Assembly: GCA_951406725.2 (NCBI GenBank) | Contig: OX597835.1 | Coordinates: 9,982,001 to 10,046,000, forward strand | Source of the DNA: Octopus vulgaris | Taxonomy: Eukaryota | DNA length: 64,000 nt | Direction: 5' to 3' | Shown here: positions 10,383-63,168 of the stretch, in pieces | Numbering within the stretch: the first letter of the stretch is position 1 | Layout: every line of letters starts with the position of its first letter | The notes under the pieces: generated by a model | What the model was told of the DNA's origin: nothing | Database searches by the model: none | Seen by the model: only the letters and a program-made list of their open reading frames with translations | Translations under genes and position numbers: made by a program

Positions 10383-10841
10383 ACCGGTGAGTGTGTTAAA
10401 TAATAAGGCACAAAAAGGAAATGACTCTCCCCAGACACAACAGAATATGCAGAAATACAGAAGTACAAAATATGAACGCAGGAATATCCTGCGTTCTTTT
10501 TTAGACAAAACGACGTCATCAGATTTTGTTGTTGTTTTTTATATAACTGGTAACAAAGAAAATAAAAAAAAAGGAGAAAGGATGAAAAAAGGAAAGAGGT
10601 AAGAGAACACTTGGTCAAAAGGATTTGTGTAAATGTAATGGAATTCTCCACACATTTTGTTCATTTCCCCAGGAATTTGTTCTTTTCTCCAGGATGTGGC
10701 GTTAGTAATTTTTATCCTCGTGTGTTCTGACGACTTAAAGTGCAGTAGAATAAGAATATTTTCACAGAATATGCAGTTTCTGGTGTTCTTCAAAATTACA
10801 GCCGTTTGATGTAAAATGTTCGGCAAGCTCCATCGAACTTC

Positions 10842-11248
10842 TATTTCTTTACTACCCACAAGGGGCTAAACACAGAGGGGACAGACACACGGATTGAGTC
10901 GATTATATCGACCCCAGTGCGTAACTGGTACTTATTTAATCGACCCCGAAAGGATGAAAGGCCAAGTCGACCTCGGCGGAATTTGATCTCAGAACGTAGC
11001 AGCAGACGAAATACCTATTTCTTTACTACCCACAAGGGGCTAAACACAGAGGGGACAAACAAGGACAGACAAACGGATTAAGTCGATCATATCGACCCCA
11101 GTGCGTATCTGGTACTTAATTTATCGACCTCGAAAGGATGAAAGGCAAAGTCGACCTCGGCGGAATTTGAACTCAGAACGTAACGGCAGATGAAATACGG
11201 CTACGCATTTCGCCCAGCGTGCTAACGTTTCTGCCAGCTCGACGCCTT
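10842..11248 (-). mobile_element. SINE family C dimer: one head plus a second headless unit
   Basis: Internal junction gacgaaatacc|tatttctttac at ~11006-11026; TSD tcgaacttc(t) flanks the whole dimer (10833 and 11249). Confidence 0.9.
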
Positions 11249-12620
11249 TCGAACTTCTGCTATTGTGTTTGACGTCATTGATTCTTTTATTGAATTGTTC
11301 TTTTAGGCAACCAGCATAAGTCAAATTGTGTTTGGTGCATTTCACTTAGCACACAAAATGGGAATCTTTACAGGTCCCACCTTCTGTATAAATCATGACG
11401 TTTCTGTTATGATTTGTGATGGAACTGACTTGACTTATGTGGTGGCATTAAAGTGGACGATTAACTGACTGTTCTATCCAAGGACAGGAGTGGCTTCTCC
11501 ATCATCGTTCTACAAGTTTCCGTTTCAGAAATTTTATTCACAATATTTTTATCGGCCTGAGATTTTTGCAAAAAGGCACTAATCCAAGGTGCCGCACAAA
11601 GTGACCGAACTCCAAACCACTGAGTCATAAAACCAGTGTCTTAACCACACGGCTGTGCTTTACTTATAAAGCGAAAGTTTCATTGATTGGAATGTATTAG
11701 TGAATCCCCTGAAGCGTTTAATCAATAAGAATAAGCAATGTTAATTATATCTGACGCTAAACAGTGTAGGAAGTAATACAGTTGGTGTGTGGAAGAGTAA
11801 TTAGTTTGCCGTGAAAATTGTTTATCGTTGAAAACAAGTTAATGACTTCACAAAATCAGCAGTTTAGATTTTTTAATCACGTGATCTCATTAACTTAGCT
11901 GTTAACAAAAGACAAAAGAATGTTTAGATCATGAAGTTTCCAAATTGGCTGGTAGTGAAACCTTGGGTATCGGGGAACTATATTTGGGGTCGATAACTAC
12001 CTCGGAACAAAAAGGCGAGTGTCGAAAGCTGAGCCTTTGTATAAAAGATTCTTTAAAGAAAAATACATTTAAAAACTTTCAATAAAATACAATTTACCGA
12101 TACACATTTCTGATTTATGCTTAATTAATTTTATCATCTATTTTCTGTTGTTATAAGACAATAATGTAATTAGAGTAATTTTATTGGTTGGAATCACAAG
12201 ACGGTAAAATGTGTGAAAACCTACTTCTATATGGATTTAGCTTTTCTTCACTCTTTCGCTGGAATTCAATGAATGAATTAAATATTTTATTTCTCATTAC
12301 CATTGTAACAGTTAATTATTTTAATTTAGATATTTAAAAGTGTGGAGAGAAAATCTAGATTTTGATAGAAAAATGCTGAGTAATCCGACTGCGTTATTTT
12401 CTGAGCTATGCCGCTATGTTAGGACCCCATATTGATCTTGAACCCCTATAAAATCAATCGGAGAAAAGTCAGTGAACGGATTAACTGTTTGTTTACTGTG
12501 GGAAGTCAACAAATATTCATCTGATACATTCTTTTTTTTTTCTTTTTACTTGTTTCAGTCATTTGACTGCGGCCATGCTGGAGCACCGCCTCTAGTCGAG
12601 CAAATTGAGAACTAATTTAA

Positions 12621-17772: not shown

Positions 17773-18589
17773 TTCAGAATATTCTTGAAGAGTAAGCCAA
17801 AATCTCTGCACATGTATTTGTACGCACATGTGTGTGTGTGTGCGTGCTCGCGCTCTCTTCTGTGTAAGAGAGAATGTGTGTGTGTGTATTCATGTGAATA
17901 TGTCTGTATGTCTTTGTCTCTATGCCTACGTGTGCGGGGTGGAATTAATCCAGAAGATGTCAGTTTAAAACGAGCTTTAACTCGTTAAAGCTTCCTCTGA
18001 TTTCTACTGACAGGTTGTCACACACACACAGAACAGTTTAACAAAAATGCCTAGCAGCAGGAACCTTGGGCAGCAGCCGTAGAATCTCGTGGAAATTTCG
18101 GCCAGTTCTATTGTTACCTTAATAATATGAAATCAACCCGTGTATTTCAATGATACCCCAAAATGATACAACCCAAAAGAAACCACAAACCTACAAACGT
18201 ATAATATTCTTTCTACTAAAGGCACAAGGCCTGGATTTCTTTCTGAGGAGGGGGACAATCGATCACATTGACCCCAGTACTCGACTGGTATTTAATTTAT
18301 CGACCCCGAAAGAATGAAAAGCAAAGTCGACATCGGCGGCTACAAACATATAATATTATTAAGACAATGTGATTGATCAAGCGAGCTAATCCTCAGAACC
18401 CTATCTTTTTATTGGTCTTTTAATGTCAGTCGAGCGGTGTGACACGATTTTCCCCGGAAAGATCTCTAGTTTGATGGGGTTGGTATAAGTTTGCTGAGAT
18501 TTGCTTTATAAGGGGCCTGCGTGCACAAGTAGAGGTGATTATCAAGTATCTCGAGACACTCCGTTGGTATGTTCGAGTAATTGCATCAT

Positions 18590-19032: not shown

Positions 19033-19090
19033 TGGCTTTCATTTGCCTCAATACAGACGGAATATTTAATGGTAAGTCAATGAGTTGGAC

Positions 19091-19322
19091 AGGCGGCGAG
19101 CTGGCAGAAACGTTAGCACGCCGGGCGAAATGGGTAGCCGTATTTCGTCTGCCGTTACGTTCTGGGTTCAAATTCCGCCTTGGTCGACTTTGCCTATCAT
19201 CCTTTCGGGGTCGATAAATTAAGTACCAGTTACGCACTGGGGTCGATATAATCGACTTAATCCGTTTGTCTGTCCTTGTTTGTCCCCTCTATGTGTAGCC
19301 CCTTTTGGGTAGTAAAGAAATA
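19091..19322 (+). mobile_element. SINE family C, full-length monomer
   Basis: Complete head to gtaaagaaata; direct repeat ggtaagtcaatga at 19071-19083 and 19323-19335. Confidence 0.92.
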
Positions 19323-20984
19323 GGTAAGTCAATGACTCTTTACCAATTGTGGAACGTATTAGATATAATTACATGGAACTTCCAAGTTTTTTGGTGACGA
19401 GGTGTCGTTAGAGTGCCGAACACACTAAGTTATCGTATTTGTTCTTAATCTCTGGGCTGTAAGCTCAGACTGCGCTGAGGGCAGTATCACCTCTCAATCT
19501 TTCCTCTTCTGTAAGTGAACTGTGACCAACCAGTCTGTCTGTTTGTCTCTTTAAGTTCTACTCACCGATTCAGAATGTGAACTACAACTACATTAATGGT
19601 ACATAGGACTATGGAATACTCAGTCAGCCAGTGAGATATTAATTTCAATGATAAAAATTCACTTGATCAAAAAAACTAACAGCTCATCAATGAAACCGAC
19701 GGAGAACCCAAACTTTTAGTCGCTCTGCCATCGCACCACGAATATGTGTTAGTAAATATATTAATAAATATTTATAAACTGGTACCATAGCCACGTCACC
19801 TTGTGTTAATGAAACACTAAATAGTCATTAAAAGAAAATGTAAATGACTTTCTTTAGTGAATAATTTTTTTAAATATTTTAGTATTTTTAATAACTTTAT
19901 TTTTCTGTCTGTGAGCTGTGAAATTGCATCATTGAATCTGTTTTTGTAATCAAAATAATAATTGTAAGAGATTTTTTTGGCTTTATAAATGAAAGAATAT
20001 TTAACGTCTAAACCAAAACCGCTAACTTATTTAAATCTGGCCGTAAATTAATGCTACAGTTAGAAATTCAAGTATTTTCACCTTGTTAAATCACCGACAA
20101 CAGAGCAAACGGTTGATTTTTTTTTTTATTACTATTCATGCAATTGTTCTCTCATTAATTTGATCTGTGGTCTGTAGCATGACTTGCCAAAGGTATGCCA
20201 AAACAACTACGAGTAAACACGACGGTTCTTGCTTGCGTGACTTGCTTATGTTTGAGGTTATAACCCCAATAATATTTTAATTCAAAACTGAAATATGGTT
20301 TTAGAATATGTTTTTTAAAAATATATTTTCAATATAAAATATATTTTCACAAAAATGGCGAATGGAACTCCATATAATTTTTTTGTGTTTTGGGTTTTTT
20401 TTTCCATTTTTAAATGTGCTGGTGTTTTGGAGCTTTGCAAATATTGGTGAGATTTTGGAGAAGTTGCCTCAGAGACAAAGATTCTATACACACTTCAGTT
20501 ATTTTACCACAGTTAAACGTAGAAGTGAGGTTGGGTGAAGTAGTGATTCTGGTAAAAGGCTTGCGATTGGAGGTTCGATTTTGGGACAGGCGTGAGTTCT
20601 GTTTTTGAGAAAAGCATTTCATCGTTTCCCACTGCAGGCAGTTCGAAAATAAATACTAACTATACATTGGGGAAGTTAAGCCTTCGATGGACTGTAACCC
20701 GTCCAGGATGAGTGTTGTTCTCTCAGTTGCTTAAAAACAAATAAACTCCGATCTAATGTGTCTGAAGGTTCAAGACCAACTTATTTTAACTTTAGGTTTA
20801 GGGACTCACCTATTCTGGAAAGTAATCAATATTCTGAAAACGTGACCAACTTTGTCGAGCTGGCTGATGCCTAAAATATTAATTAACTTAATTAAAAATA
20901 TCACATCAAAATTAATTACTATTTTGGTGTGAATTTTACGTGTGTATGTATGTATATACGTGCGTGCGTACGTATGAATGTCTG

Positions 20985-38133: not shown

Positions 38134-39675
<1,542 letters not shown>

Positions 39676-44112: not shown

Positions 44113-44335
44113 AAGGCGGCGAGCTGGGAGAATCGTTAGCACACCGAGCTTATTGCTAAACGGCGTTTCATTCGTTTTCGCGTTCAAGTTTTTACGTTCA
44201 AATTCCGCCAAGGTCTATATTGCTTTTCATCTTTTTGTGGCCGACAAAAATAATTAGCTGTTAAACACTGAGATCGAAGTTATTGACTAGCTGCTCCCAC
44301 GAAATTGCTGCCTTGTGTGAAAATTTGAAACTAAT
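44113..44335 (+). mobile_element. SINE family C-related older subfamily with different tail
   Basis: Head aaggcggcgagctgg; tail ccttgtgtgaaaatttgaaactaat shared with 57275-57495. Confidence 0.75.
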
Positions 44336-48196: not shown

Positions 48197-48595
48197 TATT
48201 TATATATAAAAGTGAGGTTGTGTGCTGTCTGTCTCCTACGATTTAGATTCCTAACTACTCCCACATTTTGCGGTGCAGTTTAACAAAAACCGGGTATCTT
48301 ATAGCCGTGATTCATATCGAGCCCTTCTGGGTATTAGCGCGCGTCTACGATGAGTCTACGATTTAAAAAAAAAATTACCATCAATTTTTCCCATTTTTAA
48401 GGCATTTTTGGCATATATAAGGGAAGTAACTCTCTAAAAATTTATTATTAAATCTCAGAACGTAAAAAGCTACAGTAACACCACCACCCCTTTGTGGTTA
48501 GCCATATTGAGATGGCTATTATACTTTACATCTCTAAAAATGCTTATATAGTTATTTCCCTTACAAACCCGAGCAACGCCGGGCGATACTGCTAG
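48197..48595 (+). mobile_element. Non-autonomous Helitron, copy 2
   Basis: Near-identical to 9377-9775; hairpin plus CTAG|T end; 5' TC changed to TA. Confidence 0.85.
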
Positions 48596-48867
48596 TAGAA
48601 ATAAAATGATATACAGAATCAAGCGGATAATAGTTATCATGTGATTATTGTATTAGTAGACTCGACACAACGTTGTTCTTCCCTTATAAAAGAACAACCA
48701 GCGTCATAGATGAAGTAGGGCATTACAGATGTTAAATACTACACTGGGCCCTGCCTAGATTTTAACAATGTGTAGAACACAGTATGGACTTATAAAAACA
48801 TTTCGTATACTTTCTAGCATGTTATAGTTGCATAACGAAATACCGCGTACTTATAAGTCATTAAGTA

Positions 48868-51800
48868 TTTATTTCTTTATTGCCCACAAGGGGATAAACA
48901 CAGAGAGGACAAACAAGAACAGACAAACGGATTAAGTCGATAATATAGACCCCAGTGCGTAACTGGTATTTATTTTAATCGAACCGGAAAGGATGAAAGG
49001 CAAAGTCAACCTCGGCAGAATTTGAACTCAGAACGTGCAGGCAGACGAAATACCTTTTTTTTTTTACTAACCACAAGGGGCTAAACACAAAGAGGACAAA
49101 CAAGGACAGACAAACGGATTAAGTCGATTATATCGACCCCAGTGCGTAACTGGTATTTATTTTAATCGACCCCGAAAGGATGAAAAGCAAAGTCAACCTC
49201 GGCGGAATTTGAACTCAGAACGTGCAGGCAGACGAAATACCTTTTTTTTTTACTACCCACAAGAAGCTTAATCACAAAGAGGACAAACAAAGACAGACAA
49301 ACGGATTAAGTCAATTATATCGACCCCAGTGCGTAACTGGTATTTATTTTAATCGAACCCGAAAGGATGAATGGCAAAGTCAACCTCGGCGGAATTTGAA
49401 CTCAGAACGTGCAGGCAGACGAAATACCTTTTTTTTTACTAACCACAAGAGGCTAAACACAAAGAGGACAAACAAGGACAGACAAACGGATTAAGTCGAT
49501 TATATCGACCTCAGTGCGTAACTGGTATTTATTTTAATCGAACCCGAAAGGATGAATGGCAAAGTCAACCTCGGCGGAATTTGAACTCAGAACGTGCAGG
49601 CAGACGAAATACCTTTTTTTTTACTAACCACAAGGGGCTAAACACAAAGAGGACAAACAAGGACAGACAAACGGATTAAGTCGATTATATCGACCTCAGT
49701 GCGTAACTGGTATTTATTTTAATCGAACCCGAAAGGATGAATGGCAAAGTCAACTTCGGCGGAATTTGAACTCAGAACGTGCAGGCAGACGAAATACCTT
49801 TTTTTTTTTACTAACCACAAGAAGCTTAATCACAAAGAGGACAAACAAAGACAGACAAACGGATTAAGTCAATTATATCGACCCCAGTGCGTAACTGGTA
49901 TTTATTTTAATCGAACCCGAAAGGATGAATGGCAAAGTCAACCTCGGCGGAATTTGAACTCAGAACGTGCAGGCAGACGAAATACCTTTTTTTTTTACTA
50001 ACCACAAGAGGCTAAACACAAAGAGGACAAACAAGGACAGACAAACGGATTAAGTCGATTATATCGACCCCAGTGCGTAACTGGTATTTATTTTAATCGA
50101 ACCCGAAAGGATGAATGGCAAAGTCAACCTCGGCGGAATTTGAACTCAGAACGTGCAGGCAGACGAAATACCTTTTTTTTACTAACCACAAGGGGCTAAA
50201 CACAAAGAGGACAAACAAGGACAGACAAACGGATTAAGTCGATTATATCGACCTCAGTGCGTAACTGGTATTTATTTTAATCGAACCCGAAAGGATGAAT
50301 GGCAAAGTCAACCTCGGCGGAATTTGAACTCAGAACGTGCAGGCAGACGAAATACCTTTTTTTTTTACTAACCACAAGGGGCTAAACACAAAGAGGACAA
50401 ACAAGGACAGACAAACGGATTAAGTCGATTATATCGACCTCAGTGCGTAACTGGTATTTATTTTAATCGAACCCGAAAGGATGAATGGCAAAGTCAACCT
50501 CGGCGGAATTTGAACTCAGAACGTGCAGGCAGACGAAATACCTTTTTTTTTACTAACCACAAGGGGCTAAACACAAAGAGGACAAACAAGGACAGACAAA
50601 CGGATTAAGTCGATTATATCGACCTCAGTGCGTAACTGGTATTTATTTTAATCGAACCCGAAAGGATGAATGGCAAAGTCAACCTCGGCGGAATTTGAAC
50701 TCAGAACGTGCAGGCAGACGAAATACCTTTTTTTTTTACTAACCACAAGGGGCTAAACACAAAGAGGACAACCAAGGACAGACAAACGGATTAAGTCGAT
50801 TATATCGACCTCAGTGCGTAACTGGTATTTATTTTAATCGAACCCGAAAGGATGAATGGCAAAGTCAACCTCGGCGGAATTTGAACTCAGAACGTGCAGG
50901 CAGACGAAATACCTTTTTTTTACTACCCACAAGAAGCTTAATCACAAAGAGGACAAACAAAGACAGACAAACGGATTAAGTCAATTATATCGACCCCAGT
51001 GCGTAACTGGTATTTATTTTAATCGAACCCGAAAGGATGAATGGCAAAGTCAACCTCGGCGGAATTTGAACTCAGAACGTGCAGGCAGACGAAATACCTT
51101 TTTTTTTTACTAACCACAAGAGGCTAAACACAAAGAGGACAAACAAGGACAGACAAACGGATTAAGTCGATTATATCGACCTCAGTGCGTAACTGGTATT
51201 TATTTTAATCGAACCCGAAAGGATGAATGGCAAAGTCAACTTCGGCGGAATTTGAACTCAGAACGTGCAGGCAGACGAAATACCTTTTTTTTTTTACTAA
51301 CCACAAGGGGCTAAACACAAAGAGGACAAACAAGGACAGACAAACGGATTAAGTCGATTATATCGACCTCAGTGCGTAACTGGTATTTATTTTAATCGAA
51401 CCCGAAAGGATGAATGGCAAAGTCAACTTCGGCGGAATTTGAACTCAGAACGTGCAGGCAGACGAAATACCTTTTTTTTTACTAACCACAAGGGGCTAAA
51501 CACAAAGAGGACAAACAAGGACAGACAAACGGATTAAGTCGATTATATCGACCTCAGTGCGTAACTGGTATTTATTTTAATCGAACCCGAAAGGATGAAT
51601 GGCAAAGTCAACCTCGGCGGAATTTGAACTCAGAACGTGCAGGCAGACGAAATACCTTTTTTTTTACTAACCACAAGGGGCTAAACACAAAGAGGACAAA
51701 CAAGGACAGACAAACGGATTAAGTCGATTATATCGACCTCAGTGCGTAACTGGTATTTATTTTAATCGAACCCGAAAGGATGAATGGCAAAGTCAACTTC

Positions 51801-53750
51801 GGCGGAATTTGAACTCAGAACGTGCAGGCAGACGAAATACCTTTTTTTTTTACTAACCACAAGGGGCTAAACACAAAGAGGACAAACAAGGACAGACAAA
51901 CGGATTAAGTCGATTATATCGACCTCAGTGCGTAACTGGTATTTATTTTAATCGAACCCGAAAGGATGAATGGCAAAGTCAACTTCGGCGGAATTTGAAC
52001 TCAGAACGTGCAGGCAGACGAAATACCTTTTTTTTTTACTAACCACAAGGGGCTAAACACAAAGAGGACAAACAAGGACAGACAAACGGATTAAGTCGAT
52101 TATATCGACCTCAGTGCGTAACTGGTATTTATTTTAATCGAACCCGAAAGGATGAATGGCAAAGTCAACTTCGGCGGAATTTGAACTCAGAACGTGCAGG
52201 CAGACGAAATACCTTTTTTTTTTACTAACCACAAGGGGCTAAACACAAAGAGGACAAACAAGGACAGACAAACGGATTAAGTCGATTATATCGACCTCAG
52301 TGCGTAACTGGTATTTATTTTAATCGAACCCGAAAGGATGAATGGCAAAGTCAACCTCGGCGGAATTTGAACTCAGAACGTGCAGGCAGACGAAATACCT
52401 TTTTTTTTACTAACCACAAGGGGCTAAACACAAAGAGGACAAACAAGGACAGACAAACGGATTAAGTCGATTATATCGACCTCAGTGCGTAACTGGTATT
52501 TATTTTAATCGAACCCGAAAGGATGAATGGCAAAGTCAACCTCGGCGGAATTTGAACTCAGAACGTGCAGGCAGACGAAATACCTTTTTTTTACTAACCA
52601 CAAGGGGCTAAACACAAAGAGGACAAACAAGGACAGACAAACGGATTAAGTCGATTATATCGACCCCAGTGCGTAACTGGTATTTATTTTAATCGACCCC
52701 GAAAGGATGAAAAGCAAAGTCAACCTCGGCGGAATTTGAACTCAGAACGTGCAGGCAGACGAAATACCTTTTTTTTTTACTACCCACAAGAAGCTTAATC
52801 ACAAAGAGGACAAACAAAGACAGACAAACGGATTAAGTCAATTATATCGACCCCAGTGCGTAACTGGTATTTATTTTAATCGAACCCGAAAGGATGAATG
52901 GCAAAGTCAACCTCGGCGGAATTTGAACTCAGAACGTGCAGGCAGACGAAATACCTATTTTTTTTACTAACCACAAGAGGCTAAACACAAAGAGGACAAA
53001 CAAGGACAGACAAACGGATTAAGTCGATTATATCGACCTCAGTGCGTAACTGGTATTTATTTTAATCGAACCCGAAAGGATGAAAGGCAAAGTCAACCTC
53101 GGCGGAATTTGAACTCAGAACGTGCAGGCAGACGAAATACCTTTTTTTTTTACTAACCACAAGGGGCTAAACACAAAGAGGACAAACAAGGACAGACAAA
53201 CGGATTAAGTCGATTATATCGACCCCAGTGCGTAACTGGTATTTATTTTAATCGACCCCGAAAGGATGAAAGGCAAAGTCAACCTCGGCGGAATTTGAAC
53301 TCAGAACGTGCAGGCAGACGAAATACCTTTTTTTTTTTACTACCCACAAGGGGCTGAACACAAAGAGGACAAACAAGGACAGACAAACGGATTAAGTCAA
53401 TAATATCGACCCCAGTGCGTAACTGGTATTTATTTTAATCAACCCCGAAAGGATGAAAGGCAAAGTCAACCTCGGCGGAATTTGAACTCAGAACGTGCAG
53501 GCAGACGAAATACCTATTTTTTTTACTACCCACAAGGGGCTAAACACAAAGAGGACAAACAGGGACAGACAAACGGAATAAGTCAATTATATCGACCTCA
53601 GTGCGTAACTGGTATTTATTTTAATCGAACCCCAAAGGATGAAAGGCAAAACCAACCCCGGCGAAATTTGATCTCAAAACATAAAGACTGACAAAATGCC
53701 GCTAAAAAATTTTGCCCGGCGTGCTAATGGTTCTGCCAGCTTACCACCTT
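48868..53750 (-). repeat. Tandem array of ~26 SINE family C-derived ~185 bp units with one terminal head
   Basis: Unit = family C from GGTATTTC to the 3' end; only the right-most copy carries the tRNA-like 5' head (53700-53750). Confidence 0.97.
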
Positions 53751-53846
53751 AGTAGGTACATATATATATTATATTACAAATAATATGTACATAATAAAAT
53801 ATGTCTTTCCCATTCTATGTAGTATGATATTTATATCATATATATA

Positions 53847-57269: not shown

Positions 57270-57274
57270 CTAAT

Positions 57275-57495
57275 CATTAGTTTCAAATTTTGGTACAAGG
57301 CCAGCAATTTCGAGGGCGGGTGGAAGTCGATTACATCGACACCAGTTTTCAGTTGGTACTTGTTTGATGGACTACGAAAGGTTAAATAGTAAAGTCAATC
57401 TCGGTGGCATTTGAACTTAGAAGATAAAGATGGACGAAATACCGCTAAGCGCTTTTTGCCCGACGTGCTAACGATTCTACCAGGTCACCGCCGCC
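57275..57495 (-). mobile_element. SINE family C-related older subfamily
   Basis: Diverged family C body with alternative tail. Confidence 0.78.
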
Positions 57496-59297: not shown

Positions 59298-60431
59298 AGA
59301 GTTGTCAGATGAATTCGTTCATTTTTCCTCCGTTTATTTTCATCCTTATTTTTCATCAACAATTTTGACAAGTCAGTCAATAATATATTCTCCTTCAGGT
59401 TTCATGATTTCTTGTCAATGTTCCACTTCCTTGCCAATGCCTTGATGTTTGAAACAACTGGGTTTCCACTCGATGACTTCATCAAGCCACGTTCTTCTTT
59501 CCTCGCTGTTGTTGAATGAATCGCCTCATAAATTGTTGGTTAGCAGCCAAGAAAGGTGATGACCTGAAGGCTCTAAGCCAAAAGAATACGGTGGGTGTGT
59601 TTGAACTTCCTAACCGAGCTCTTGAATGGTATTCTTGGTCAAATTAGCGATGTGGGTGTGCTTTGAGGAAGCACACCGCATCGCCAGTCGGGTCGTATGG
59701 ACACTACCTGTCGAGCCACGATATATATTTCTTTACTACCCACAAGGGGCTAAACACAGAGGTGACAAACAAGGACAGACATAGGTATTAAGTCGATTAC
59801 ATCGACCCCAGTGCGTAACTGGTACTTTATTTATCGACCCCGAAAGGATGAAAGGCAAAGTCGACCTCGGCGGAATTTGAACTCAGAACGTAACGGCAGA
59901 CGAAATACCACTAAGCATTTCGCCCGGCGCGCTAACGTTTCTGCCAGCTCGCCGCCTTGATATAATGAGAGATTATATCAAGACTCCCCTCTACTAGATT
60001 GGCGCGGATCCTCATGAAAGCACTCGTTTAATCGATCCTCTCTGAAGTGAACCGGGCAAACGGAACGCGGGTAATCTGCAAGTTGGAATTTGTCCTTTCG
60101 AAGCATGAAAGCCATTTCTAGACAGTTCTTTCGTTAATTGTGCATTTTCTGTACACAGTGCAAATATGTTAAGCAGTTTTTGGCAGCTATGGAATCTTGA
60201 TTTAAAGGTGAAGAGAAACAGAAGTCGAAAATGATAATATTTGTATATTTGCAATCCCTCATCATAATCCTGAACGCAGGTAAAATATATTCAAATTTCA
60301 AGAATTATCAGCAAAAGTTTTGGAGCAAGAATAGGACTAAACAAATAAATAAAGCACTAAAATAAAAATATATTTTTTGTTAATTCAAATAACATCTGAA
60401 AGAAACGAACTAATTTATCTGACAACCCAAT
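59298..60431 (-). mobile_element. Degenerate mariner transposon interrupted by a SINE
   Basis: TIRs gttgtcagatgaattcgttc / gaactaatttatctgacaaccc; minus peptides HFRLLFLF (N-terminus), HPPYS (catalytic region) and GEYIID* (C-terminus). Confidence 0.85.
59726..59958 (-). mobile_element. SINE family C, full-length monomer inside the mariner
   Basis: Complete copy; short TSD gatata. Confidence 0.93.
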
Positions 60432-62935: not shown

Positions 62936-63163
62936 AAGGCGGCGAGCTGGCAGACACGTTAACGCGCCGGGCGAAATGCTTAGCGGTATTTCGTCTGTCG
63001 TTACGTTCTGAGTTCAAATTCCGCCGAGGTCGACTTTGCCTTTCATCCTTTCGGGGTCGATTAATTAAGTACCAGTTTCGCACTGGGGTCGATGTAATTG
63101 ACTTAATCCCTTTGTCTGTCCTTGTTTGTCCCCTTTATGTTTAGCCCCTTGTGGTCAGTAAAG

Positions 63164-63168
<5 letters not shown>
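62936..63168 (+). mobile_element. SINE family C, full-length monomer
   Basis: A-box-like gagctggcag, B box gttcaaattcc, Meta-like gcctttcatcctttcggggtcgat, end gtaaagaaata. Confidence 0.93.

What the first reader, a model, noticed from the sequence alone, without database searches (positions are those of the whole stretch)
48868..53750. A SINE that multimerises at a fixed, self-complementary junction: one head plus ~25 headless units
Seen: every unit runs from the SINE-internal GGTATTTC to the 3' end ...AAAGAAATA, and only the last copy has the 5' head. The same junction occurs independently in the dimer at 10842-11248. The 3' terminal GAAATA is the reverse complement of the internal TATTTC, so the ancestral junction is the hairpin GAAATA-GG-TATTTC. 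Inference: in the RNA this pairing places the 3' end next to the unit start. Reverse transcriptase could then re-enter the 3' end repeatedly, or the unit could be ligated into a ~185 nt circle and copied by rolling circle, like retrozymes but with no ribozyme I can see. This would be a built-in SINE-to-satellite route. I cannot tell from the sequence whether it has been described.
Basis: partly seen in the sequence, partly recalled or inferred. Interest (0 to 1): 0.8.

Follow-up and report, generated by a model that had tools for sequence, protein, structure and literature searches.

The report
Octopus SINE satellite with self-targeted junction
A short jumping element of an octopus-type family sits here as one complete copy followed by 25 headless copies, an array most likely grown by ordinary DNA duplication, and the same join recurs across the family, likely because read-through RNA of the element primes insertion at a short sequence that the element itself carries.

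Summary
The anatomy is real: one head-bearing tRNA-type SINE unit plus 25 headless units of about 186 bp (48870-53748, minus strand), all starting at the SINE-internal GGTATTTC. The same join is in the dimer and is the top go-back joint in public runs (93 of 96 and 26 of 34 contigs in the listed rows). The rolling-circle or re-entry reading does not fit these loci. Internal units share linked variants in repeated blocks, and the first and last units differ on their outer halves, as unequal exchange predicts. The dimer's two arms carry different family variants. None of the 25 array junctions keeps the hairpin, and in full-length RNA the internal site is predicted to pair with the head. New clue: a solo headless copy landed on a GGTATTTC that belongs to an old LINE reading frame (15-bp target duplication), and a full copy landed on GGTAAGTC. 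Most likely read-through dimer RNA primes at GGTATTTC-like targets, including the SINE itself, so the junction is inherited and re-made, and DNA-level exchange then builds long arrays. SINE-derived satellites and head-plus-truncated-unit multimers are published; the self-targeting is the untested novelty.

The parts
53515..53748 (-). Head-bearing first unit (u0): A-box-like motif near 53726-53738, long head hairpin, B-box-like motif. The 5' half is more diverged and has T4+ runs, so it is probably dead as a Pol III gene; the 3' half matches the array units
49055..53514 (-). 24 internal headless units of 184-188 bp, each from GGTATTTC (SINE position 50) to an A-run; 2.2% apart on average; shared variants in repeated blocks; B box but no A box in the unit tested
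48870..49054 (-). Last headless unit (u25), the only one ending AAAGAAATA; array-like 5' part, own 3' end; no target duplication found around the array
48835..48846 (-). Extra GCGGTATTTCGT (junction site with its head-side bases) 23 nt beyond the array's 3' end; unexplained
   Evidence: 3 matches in the window, the other two in SINE heads; 0 expected
10842..11248 (-). Dimer: head-bearing unit (11016-11248) plus headless unit (10842-11015), with intact junction AAAGAAATA|GGTATTTC
10833..10842 (-). 3' copy of the single 10-bp target duplication AGAAGTTCGA around the dimer (5' copy 11249-11258)
38456..38651 (-). Solo headless copy flanked by a 15-bp target duplication beginning GGTATTTC (38456-38470 and 38637-38651, one mismatch), inserted in an old LINE reverse-transcriptase frame; the duplicated letters are LINE coding DNA
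19071..19337 (+). Full-length monomer with a 15-bp target duplication beginning GGTAAGTC (6 of 8 letters match the junction site)
59726..59958 (-). Full-length monomer used as the reference for public reads; following letters unlike the junction (3 of 8)
62936..63168 (+). Full-length monomer in a TA microsatellite; following letters unlike the junction (4 of 8)

Best explanation
This is a SINE-derived tandem array of one head-bearing and 25 headless units that most likely grew from a dimer or short multimer by DNA-level unequal exchange, and its family-wide junction is likely both inherited from read-through dimeric source copies and re-made because such RNA would prime reverse transcription at GGTATTTC-like targets, the commonest of which is the SINE's own position 50. 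Steps: (1) shown: young units and the dimer have no T4 run. Inferred: Pol III reads from a head through the junction into the next unit. (2) Inferred: the partner LINE enzyme binds the tail of any unit and starts at a nicked target whose end pairs with the RNA letters after the tail (GGUAUUUC), giving monomers or dimers whose target duplication starts with those letters. (3) Shown for one locus: a non-SINE GGTATTTC target was hit, and the 5' end was joined inside the same homology, giving a headless copy. (4) Inferred: the same event inside an existing SINE gives head+unit+unit with the identical junction. (5) Shown pattern, inferred process: block duplication and homogenisation make the 26-unit array. 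The GAAATA/TATTTC complementarity is not needed in this model.
For: Array: among units 1-24, 12 of 16 variants are shared and 4 are singletons. One haplotype with several linked changes recurs at units 4, 14, 20 and 23, and the pair of types at units 4-5 recurs at 23-24. 63 changes fall in 16 variants, against at least 28 in 20000 simulations of independent mutation with hot spots. All 24 share 10 column differences from the dispersed majority. u0 differs from the internal units mainly in its first 60 columns (13 of 53, then 7 of 133), and u25 mainly at its 3' end (1 of 53, then 13 of 133). Junction: top go-back joint in both contig runs, and also in raw DNA reads (1 and 2 reads). The consensus of 208 loose ends beyond the 3' end reads GGTATTTCGTC. 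Target: removing the solo copy restores a continuous alignment to a LINE RT protein across the site. 2 of 6 non-junction 3' ends in the window start GGTA and 1 of 6 the full 8-mer (each about 1e-4 by chance, post hoc). The GGTA case has a head, so its template was linear. The dimer sits in one target duplication. One listed junction continues with older-type letters, as nested insertion would give. No T4 run in 3 of 4 monomers or the dimer. RNA-to-target pairing at priming is described for LINEs (PMC10830420 and PMC4760211, passages).
Against: Only 6 informative 3' ends, and 4 of them do not resemble the junction (3-4 of 8 letters). No genome was held, so target duplications could not be counted genome-wide. 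An endonuclease preference would give the same targets. The model leaves the exact self-complementarity at the junction as coincidence, yet headless RNA is predicted to pair its ends (P 0.44-0.96 in 3 units; clearly above shuffles in 2 of 5 units, borderline in 2, not in 1). The array has no target duplication, so its first insertion cannot be read. The older look of the array head is weak (p 0.04 on all sites, 0.12-0.16 without CpG). The partner LINE was not identified.
Confidence: 0.55

Rival explanations
1. Pure descent: one ancestral head+unit+unit dimer became a source gene (an Alu-like dimeric subfamily). The junction is only inherited, and the look-alike targets are a side effect or chance. 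Arrays grow by unequal exchange.
For: Single target duplication round the dimer; arms differ at family-level sites 17, 86 and 89 of the unit; dimeric SINEs are common (PMC3531059 and PMC10702118, passages).
Against: Does not by itself explain the 8-of-8 LINE-coded target, the 6-of-8 target, or junctions followed by older-type letters.
Confidence: 0.17
2. The partner LINE endonuclease prefers a GGTA(TTTC)-like site that the SINE happens to contain, so copies insert into each other at position 50 without any RNA-DNA pairing.
For: The same target data; precedent of target-preferring Tx1 elements and tandem SINEU-3 from sequential insertion (PMC4494074, passages).
Against: Letters 5' of the cut differ among the sites (AAT, GTT, AGC); 4 of 6 ends do not fit; the partner LINE is unknown.
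Confidence: 0.13
3. One reading: the transcript is cut at the loop of the head hairpin just before G50. The headless RNA pairs its ends and is ligated into a circle or serves in end-to-end template jumps, so multimers are made during reverse transcription.
For: The junction lies at the edge of the predicted apical loop of the head hairpin; end pairing is predicted in headless RNA; the junction is fixed family-wide; L1 ORF2p makes template-jump concatemers in vitro (PMC10830420, passages). Jumps between different RNA molecules would also give unlike dimer arms.
Against: Array variants are shared in blocks; dimer arms have 13 substitutions plus a 10-nt gap and no private shared change, which excludes one molecule copied twice; no ribozyme; the junction is in genomic DNA, so junction contigs are not evidence of circles; a circle cannot template the head-bearing GGTA insertion.
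Confidence: 0.12
4. Ordinary tandem duplication by replication slippage, repeated at many loci and steered to the same end points by the short inverted repeat.
For: The inverted repeat brackets the unit exactly; DNA-level growth is shown for the array.
Against: A recent duplication would give arms with shared private changes, and the dimer has none; no direct microhomology at the join; says nothing about the LINE-coded target.
Confidence: 0.03

Closest known systems
TSD1-(SINE)n-TSD1 multimers of the blood clam Scapharca broughtonii (Martelossi et al. 2024, PMC11481361; passages read, 8 supplements searched for motifs)
   Same: Mollusc tRNA SINE arrays of 4-15 units with a complete head only on the first unit, the same head truncation on the others, and one target duplication round the whole; ascribed to unequal recombination.
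   Different: There the first and middle units also lack part of the tail (an internal duplication). Here every unit keeps the whole tail, and the join is tail end to internal site. No self-targeting in the passages I saw.
SINE-derived satellites (sSat) of scaled reptiles (Vassetzky et al. 2023, PMC10702118; parts 1, 3 and 4 of 5 read)
   Same: Units of 70-290 nt shorter than the SINE, a longer terminal unit reaching the SINE end, the same unit at many loci, homogeneous long arrays, growth by multi-unit steps.
   Different: Reptile families; the authors found no true dimeric source SINE and name unequal recombination or insertion into the same locus. Here a dimer inside one target duplication and a junction-like landing site are seen.
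Dimeric or complex SINEs such as Alu and B1-dID (SINEBase PMC3531059, passages; PMC10702118)
   Same: Two related units moved as one piece inside one target duplication.
   Different: The second arm lacks the A box and begins mid-head; monomers, dimers and long arrays coexist with the same join.
Crocodilian SINEU-3 with Tx1-Mar (Kojima 2015, PMC4494074; passages)
   Same: A SINE with a preferred landing sequence that forms tandems by sequential insertion.
   Different: The target is a Mariner element and units are separated by a target duplication; here the target would be the SINE itself.
Non-LTR retrozymes (bioRxiv 10.64898/2026.07.22.740005, abstract; PMC4918200, search listing only)
   Same: Tandem short units proposed to move through circular RNA.
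   Different: Defined by hammerhead ribozymes; none found here, and this element has a Pol III-type head and target duplications.
Octopus SINEs OK, OR1, OR2 (Ohshima and Okada 1994; seen only as citations)
   Same: tRNA-derived octopus retroposons; this family occurs in Octopus bimaculoides gene models.

Membership tests
tRNA-derived SINE | Short, interspersed, non-coding, many copies | tested here: met
   233-nt monomer; 8 dispersed loci plus the array in 64 kb; 93725 and 17867 contigs laid in two runs
tRNA-derived SINE | Internal Pol III promoter (A and B boxes) | tested here: met
   A-like motif at position 13 and B-like motif at 77 of the monomer (box patterns recalled)
tRNA-derived SINE | At least 60% identity to a named tRNA (SINEBase definition) | tested here: inconclusive
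   ARAGORN and Rfam found no tRNA; no tRNA set was compared
tRNA-derived SINE | Target-site duplications | tested here: met
   10, 15, 15 and 6 bp at the 4 dispersed loci tested; none at the array
tRNA-derived SINE | LINE-derived tail with a known partner | not tested
   No LINE 3' end with this tail in the window; no genome
SINE-derived satellite (sSat) | At least four middle units shorter than the SINE, with a longer terminal unit | tested here: met
   24 middle units; u0 carries the head
SINE-derived satellite (sSat) | Higher likeness within the array than among dispersed copies | tested here: met
   2.2% against 8.0% mean pairwise difference
SINE-derived satellite (sSat) | Subtelomeric or heterochromatic placement | not testable with these tools
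   No genome held
Dimeric SINE family | Dimer moves as one unit, with fixed left and right arms | tested here: inconclusive
   One dimer with a single target duplication and unlike arms; n = 1
Retrozyme | Self-cleaving ribozyme at the unit boundary | tested here: not met
   0 Rfam hits in the window and in 53100-53800 at E up to 10; no hammerhead core on either strand and no HDV-like fold anchored at the junction in 3 stretches (descriptors recalled)
Retrozyme | Abundant monomer-length circular RNA | not testable with these tools
   Only assembled contigs of runs guessed to be RNA were offered
Named central-domain superfamily (Meta, Nin/Deu, CORE) | Match to the published domain consensus | tested here: inconclusive
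   A 23-nt block is shared with another animal's SINEs in 121 metagenome loci; motif not found in texts or held supplements; figures and one supplement each of PMC4824008 and PMC4758252 were not visible

The most novel reading that the evidence does not exclude
The SINE transcript is cut by a host nuclease in the loop of its head hairpin, like a tRNA in its anticodon loop. The freed headless RNA pairs its two ends through GAAAUA/UAUUUC and is closed into a 184-nt ribozyme-free circle or chained by RT jumps. The sealed junction then base-pairs with GGTATTTC in genomic SINE copies, so the element seeds its own satellites: a self-targeting, protein-cut analogue of retrozymes.
Probability: 0.1. 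Interest if true: 0.85.

Novelty: new variant of a known kind. Interest (0 to 1): 0.42.

Why it matters
Why particular pieces of a SINE become satellites again and again is open: PMC10702118 calls the process non-random and leaves the factor unknown. If a SINE's read-through RNA primes at a sequence inside the SINE, the same headless join is re-made at many loci and supplies ready seeds for unequal exchange. That is a concrete, countable explanation, in a genome group where SINEs are about 11.6% of the DNA (O. vulgaris, PMC13282606). If the genome-wide count fails, this is an ordinary SINE-derived array from a dimeric subfamily.

Tried and rejected
No genome for the window. Tail motif: 0 hits in viral and metagenome contigs. 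Central motif: 0 in viral and GTDB contigs. Its 121 metagenome loci are another animal's SINEs that share only the central block; 5 of 121 had a second hit, none a unit-spaced copy of this element, so they say nothing on the junction. ARAGORN and Rfam were blank. A spurious ORF across the dimer junction had no protein match. The three Octopus bimaculoides matches cover head and body only, not the junction. No RNA holder on record was listed; X15 and X19 are only guessed to be RNA and are contigs, so nothing is concluded on expression or circles. X22 and X23 laid only 16 and 225 of 12.9 million reads each, too few for the same genome, so they were used only for presence. Depth was not used as copy number. 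An HDV-like fold was considered because the first 7 letters of the unit have a complement 82-83 nt downstream; rejected, as the rest of the fold is absent. 'The array head comes from an older copy' was considered; it is not significant without CpG sites. One search cut two 3' ends one letter off; one search has the right letters, and the counts 2 of 6 and 1 of 6 follow. Four related copies (9210, 18259, 44113, 57324) lack this tail and were left out of that count. Literature: 10 searches listed no description of this octopus junction; one search returned only unrelated papers. The library lacks most subscription papers, including Ohshima and Okada 1994.
Full report
Observation. Tandem Repeats Finder gives a 186-bp array of 25.8 copies at 48884-53680. 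On the minus strand it splits into one head-bearing unit (u0, 53515-53748) and 25 headless units, all 25 starting GGTATTTCGTCT, which is position 50 of the 233-nt monomer. The element is a dispersed repeat with eight other loci in the window, target duplications and A- and B-box-like motifs (patterns recalled). Antisense read-throughs of it occur in three Octopus bimaculoides gene models, so the host is inferred to be an octopus. One correction: 0 of 25 array junctions read GAAATA|GG. 23 have an A-run and 2 an A-run ending TA. The intact AAAGAAATA|GGTATTTC is in the dimer only.

The junction is a family trait. Reads and contigs of four runs were laid on the monomer at 59726-59958. The table lists 15 of 87 joints, and the tool notes that X15 was too deep to count fully. 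The best-supported joint goes from the last base back to position 50: 37 contigs in X15, 11 in X19, and 1 and 2 raw DNA reads in X22 and X23. Seven listed rows leave the 3' end, and all go to the unit start or to a diverged version of its first 16-17 letters. They hold 93 of 96 contigs in X15 and 26 of 34 in X19; 67 and 18 of these are within 1-2 letters of the exact join. No listed row joins the 3' end to position 1. The consensus of 208 loose ends past the 3' end in X15 reads GGTATTTCGTC (agreement 0.6), and 511 loose ends before position 50 read as the SINE tail (0.79). The runs are only guessed to be RNA, are contigs, and the join exists in DNA, so this says nothing about circles.

The array grew in DNA. 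If 24 internal units had been copied from one RNA or circle, later changes would be private. Instead 12 of 16 variants are shared. One haplotype with several linked changes, including an insertion, recurs at units 4, 14, 20 and 23, and the pair of types at units 4-5 recurs at 23-24. The 63 changes fall in 16 variants, against a minimum of 28 in 20000 simulations with mutation hot spots. Internal units differ by 2.2%, dispersed copies by 8.0%. u0 departs from the internal units on its outer, 5' side (13 of 53 columns, then 7 of 133). u25 departs on its 3' side (1 of 53, then 13 of 133) and alone keeps the original end. This is the pattern expected from unequal exchange starting in a dimer or short multimer (established satellite behaviour; process inferred). 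The head of u0 has four T4+ runs, so the array is probably not a current source. No target duplication flanks it, while the same search found 6-15 bp duplications at 4 of 4 other loci.

The dimer was not one molecule copied twice. It sits inside one 10-bp duplication. Its arms differ by 13 substitutions and a 10-nt gap, share no private change, and carry alternative letters at sites that vary across the family. That fits a two-armed source copy, a nested insertion, or a jump between two RNA molecules.

The hairpin. In 4 of 4 full-length monomers the internal TATTTC is predicted to pair with GAAAT of the head (P 0.77-1.0) and not with the 3' end (P about 0) (consensus fold). The 14-letter junction does not fold alone and reaches P about 0.38 in the dimer RNA. 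Rfam and hand descriptors show no ribozyme. The RNA route therefore needs an unknown cut first.

The new clue. A solo headless copy at 38471-38651 is flanked by a 15-bp duplication beginning GGTATTTC. Taking out the insert makes one continuous alignment to a LINE reverse-transcriptase protein (residues 230-486, 49% identity), where the filled site gives two pieces. The duplicated letters are therefore LINE coding DNA: the SINE landed on a non-SINE copy of its junction sequence and was joined at its 5' end inside the same homology. The full monomer at 19090 landed on GGTAAGTC. Of 6 non-junction 3' ends with this tail, 2 start GGTA and 1 the full 8-mer (about 1e-4 each, post hoc); the other 4 match 3-4 of 8. 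In target-primed reverse transcription the first letters of the duplication are those that pair with the RNA (L1 model in PMC10830420, and annealing in PMC4760211; passages). The template RNA then likely ran on into GGUAUUUC. Young units and the dimer have no T4 run, so read-through from a head into a second unit is expected. The head-bearing case needs a linear template. The most abundant GGTATTTC targets are SINE copies, and insertion there with a homologous 5' join re-creates head+unit+unit. One listed junction continues with older-type letters, as that predicts, though an old dimer would too.

Comparison. Head-plus-truncated-unit multimers in one target duplication are described in a clam (PMC11481361, passages). 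SINE-derived satellites with one long terminal unit and locus-to-locus fixed units are described in reptiles (PMC10702118, three of five parts). Dimeric SINEs are common (PMC3531059, passages), and target-preferring SINEs that form tandems are known (PMC4494074, passages). It works like an sSat seeded by a dimeric SINE, and it meets the sSat features I could test. It is not a retrozyme. Ten searches listed no account of this octopus junction or of SINE self-targeting through it; the original octopus SINE paper is outside the library, and unseen figures and supplements may name the family.

Verdict. Observation largely real; rolling circle or re-entry unlikely for these loci. DNA-level growth of the array is about 0.9 likely; the full account with junction priming 0.55. 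New variant of a known kind, interest 0.42. The ribozyme-free circle remains possible at about 0.1.

Noticed in passing
window 48835-48846 (-): A copy of the junction site with its head-side bases lies 23 nt past the array's 3' end, after a short palindromic stretch; elsewhere in the window this 12-mer occurs only in SINE heads.
   Followed up: partly
run X23, loose ends at window 59726 and 59779: 48 and 50 reads show a roughly 79-nt tandem derivative made of the first 13 letters of the unit plus the tail, with the same junction. The run laid few reads, so it may be another species or one locus.
   Followed up: no
window 38140-39320 (+): Decayed LINE reverse-transcriptase fragment (about 49% identical to P0001, Pfam RVT_1), interrupted by the headless SINE.
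   Followed up: yes
window 18259-18339, 44113-44330, 57270-57495: Older sister SINE copies with the same head and central block but a different tail; two have target duplications containing TAGGT or TAGT.
   Followed up: partly
window 59955-59985: The 5' flank of the monomer is an inverted repeat (12-bp arms, 5-nt spacer) ending at the SINE start, so its 6-bp target duplication may be coincidental.
   Followed up: no
window 19071-19092 (+): A few extra letters lie between the 5' target duplication and the SINE start.
   Followed up: no
window 48400-48600 (+): Short element with internal hairpins ending in CTAGT, resembling a non-autonomous Helitron 3' end (recalled, not tested).
   Followed up: no
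L001-L121: SINEs of another animal in metagenome assemblies share an exact 23-nt central block with this SINE but have different heads and tails.
   Followed up: partly
P0003, P0004, P0005: Three Octopus bimaculoides protein models contain antisense SINE translated as exon, likely annotation artefacts or exonisation.
   Followed up: no
window, unit position 83-89: All array units carry a change that makes a perfect 7-letter complement to the unit start 83 nt downstream; dispersed copies have a G-U version.
   Followed up: partly
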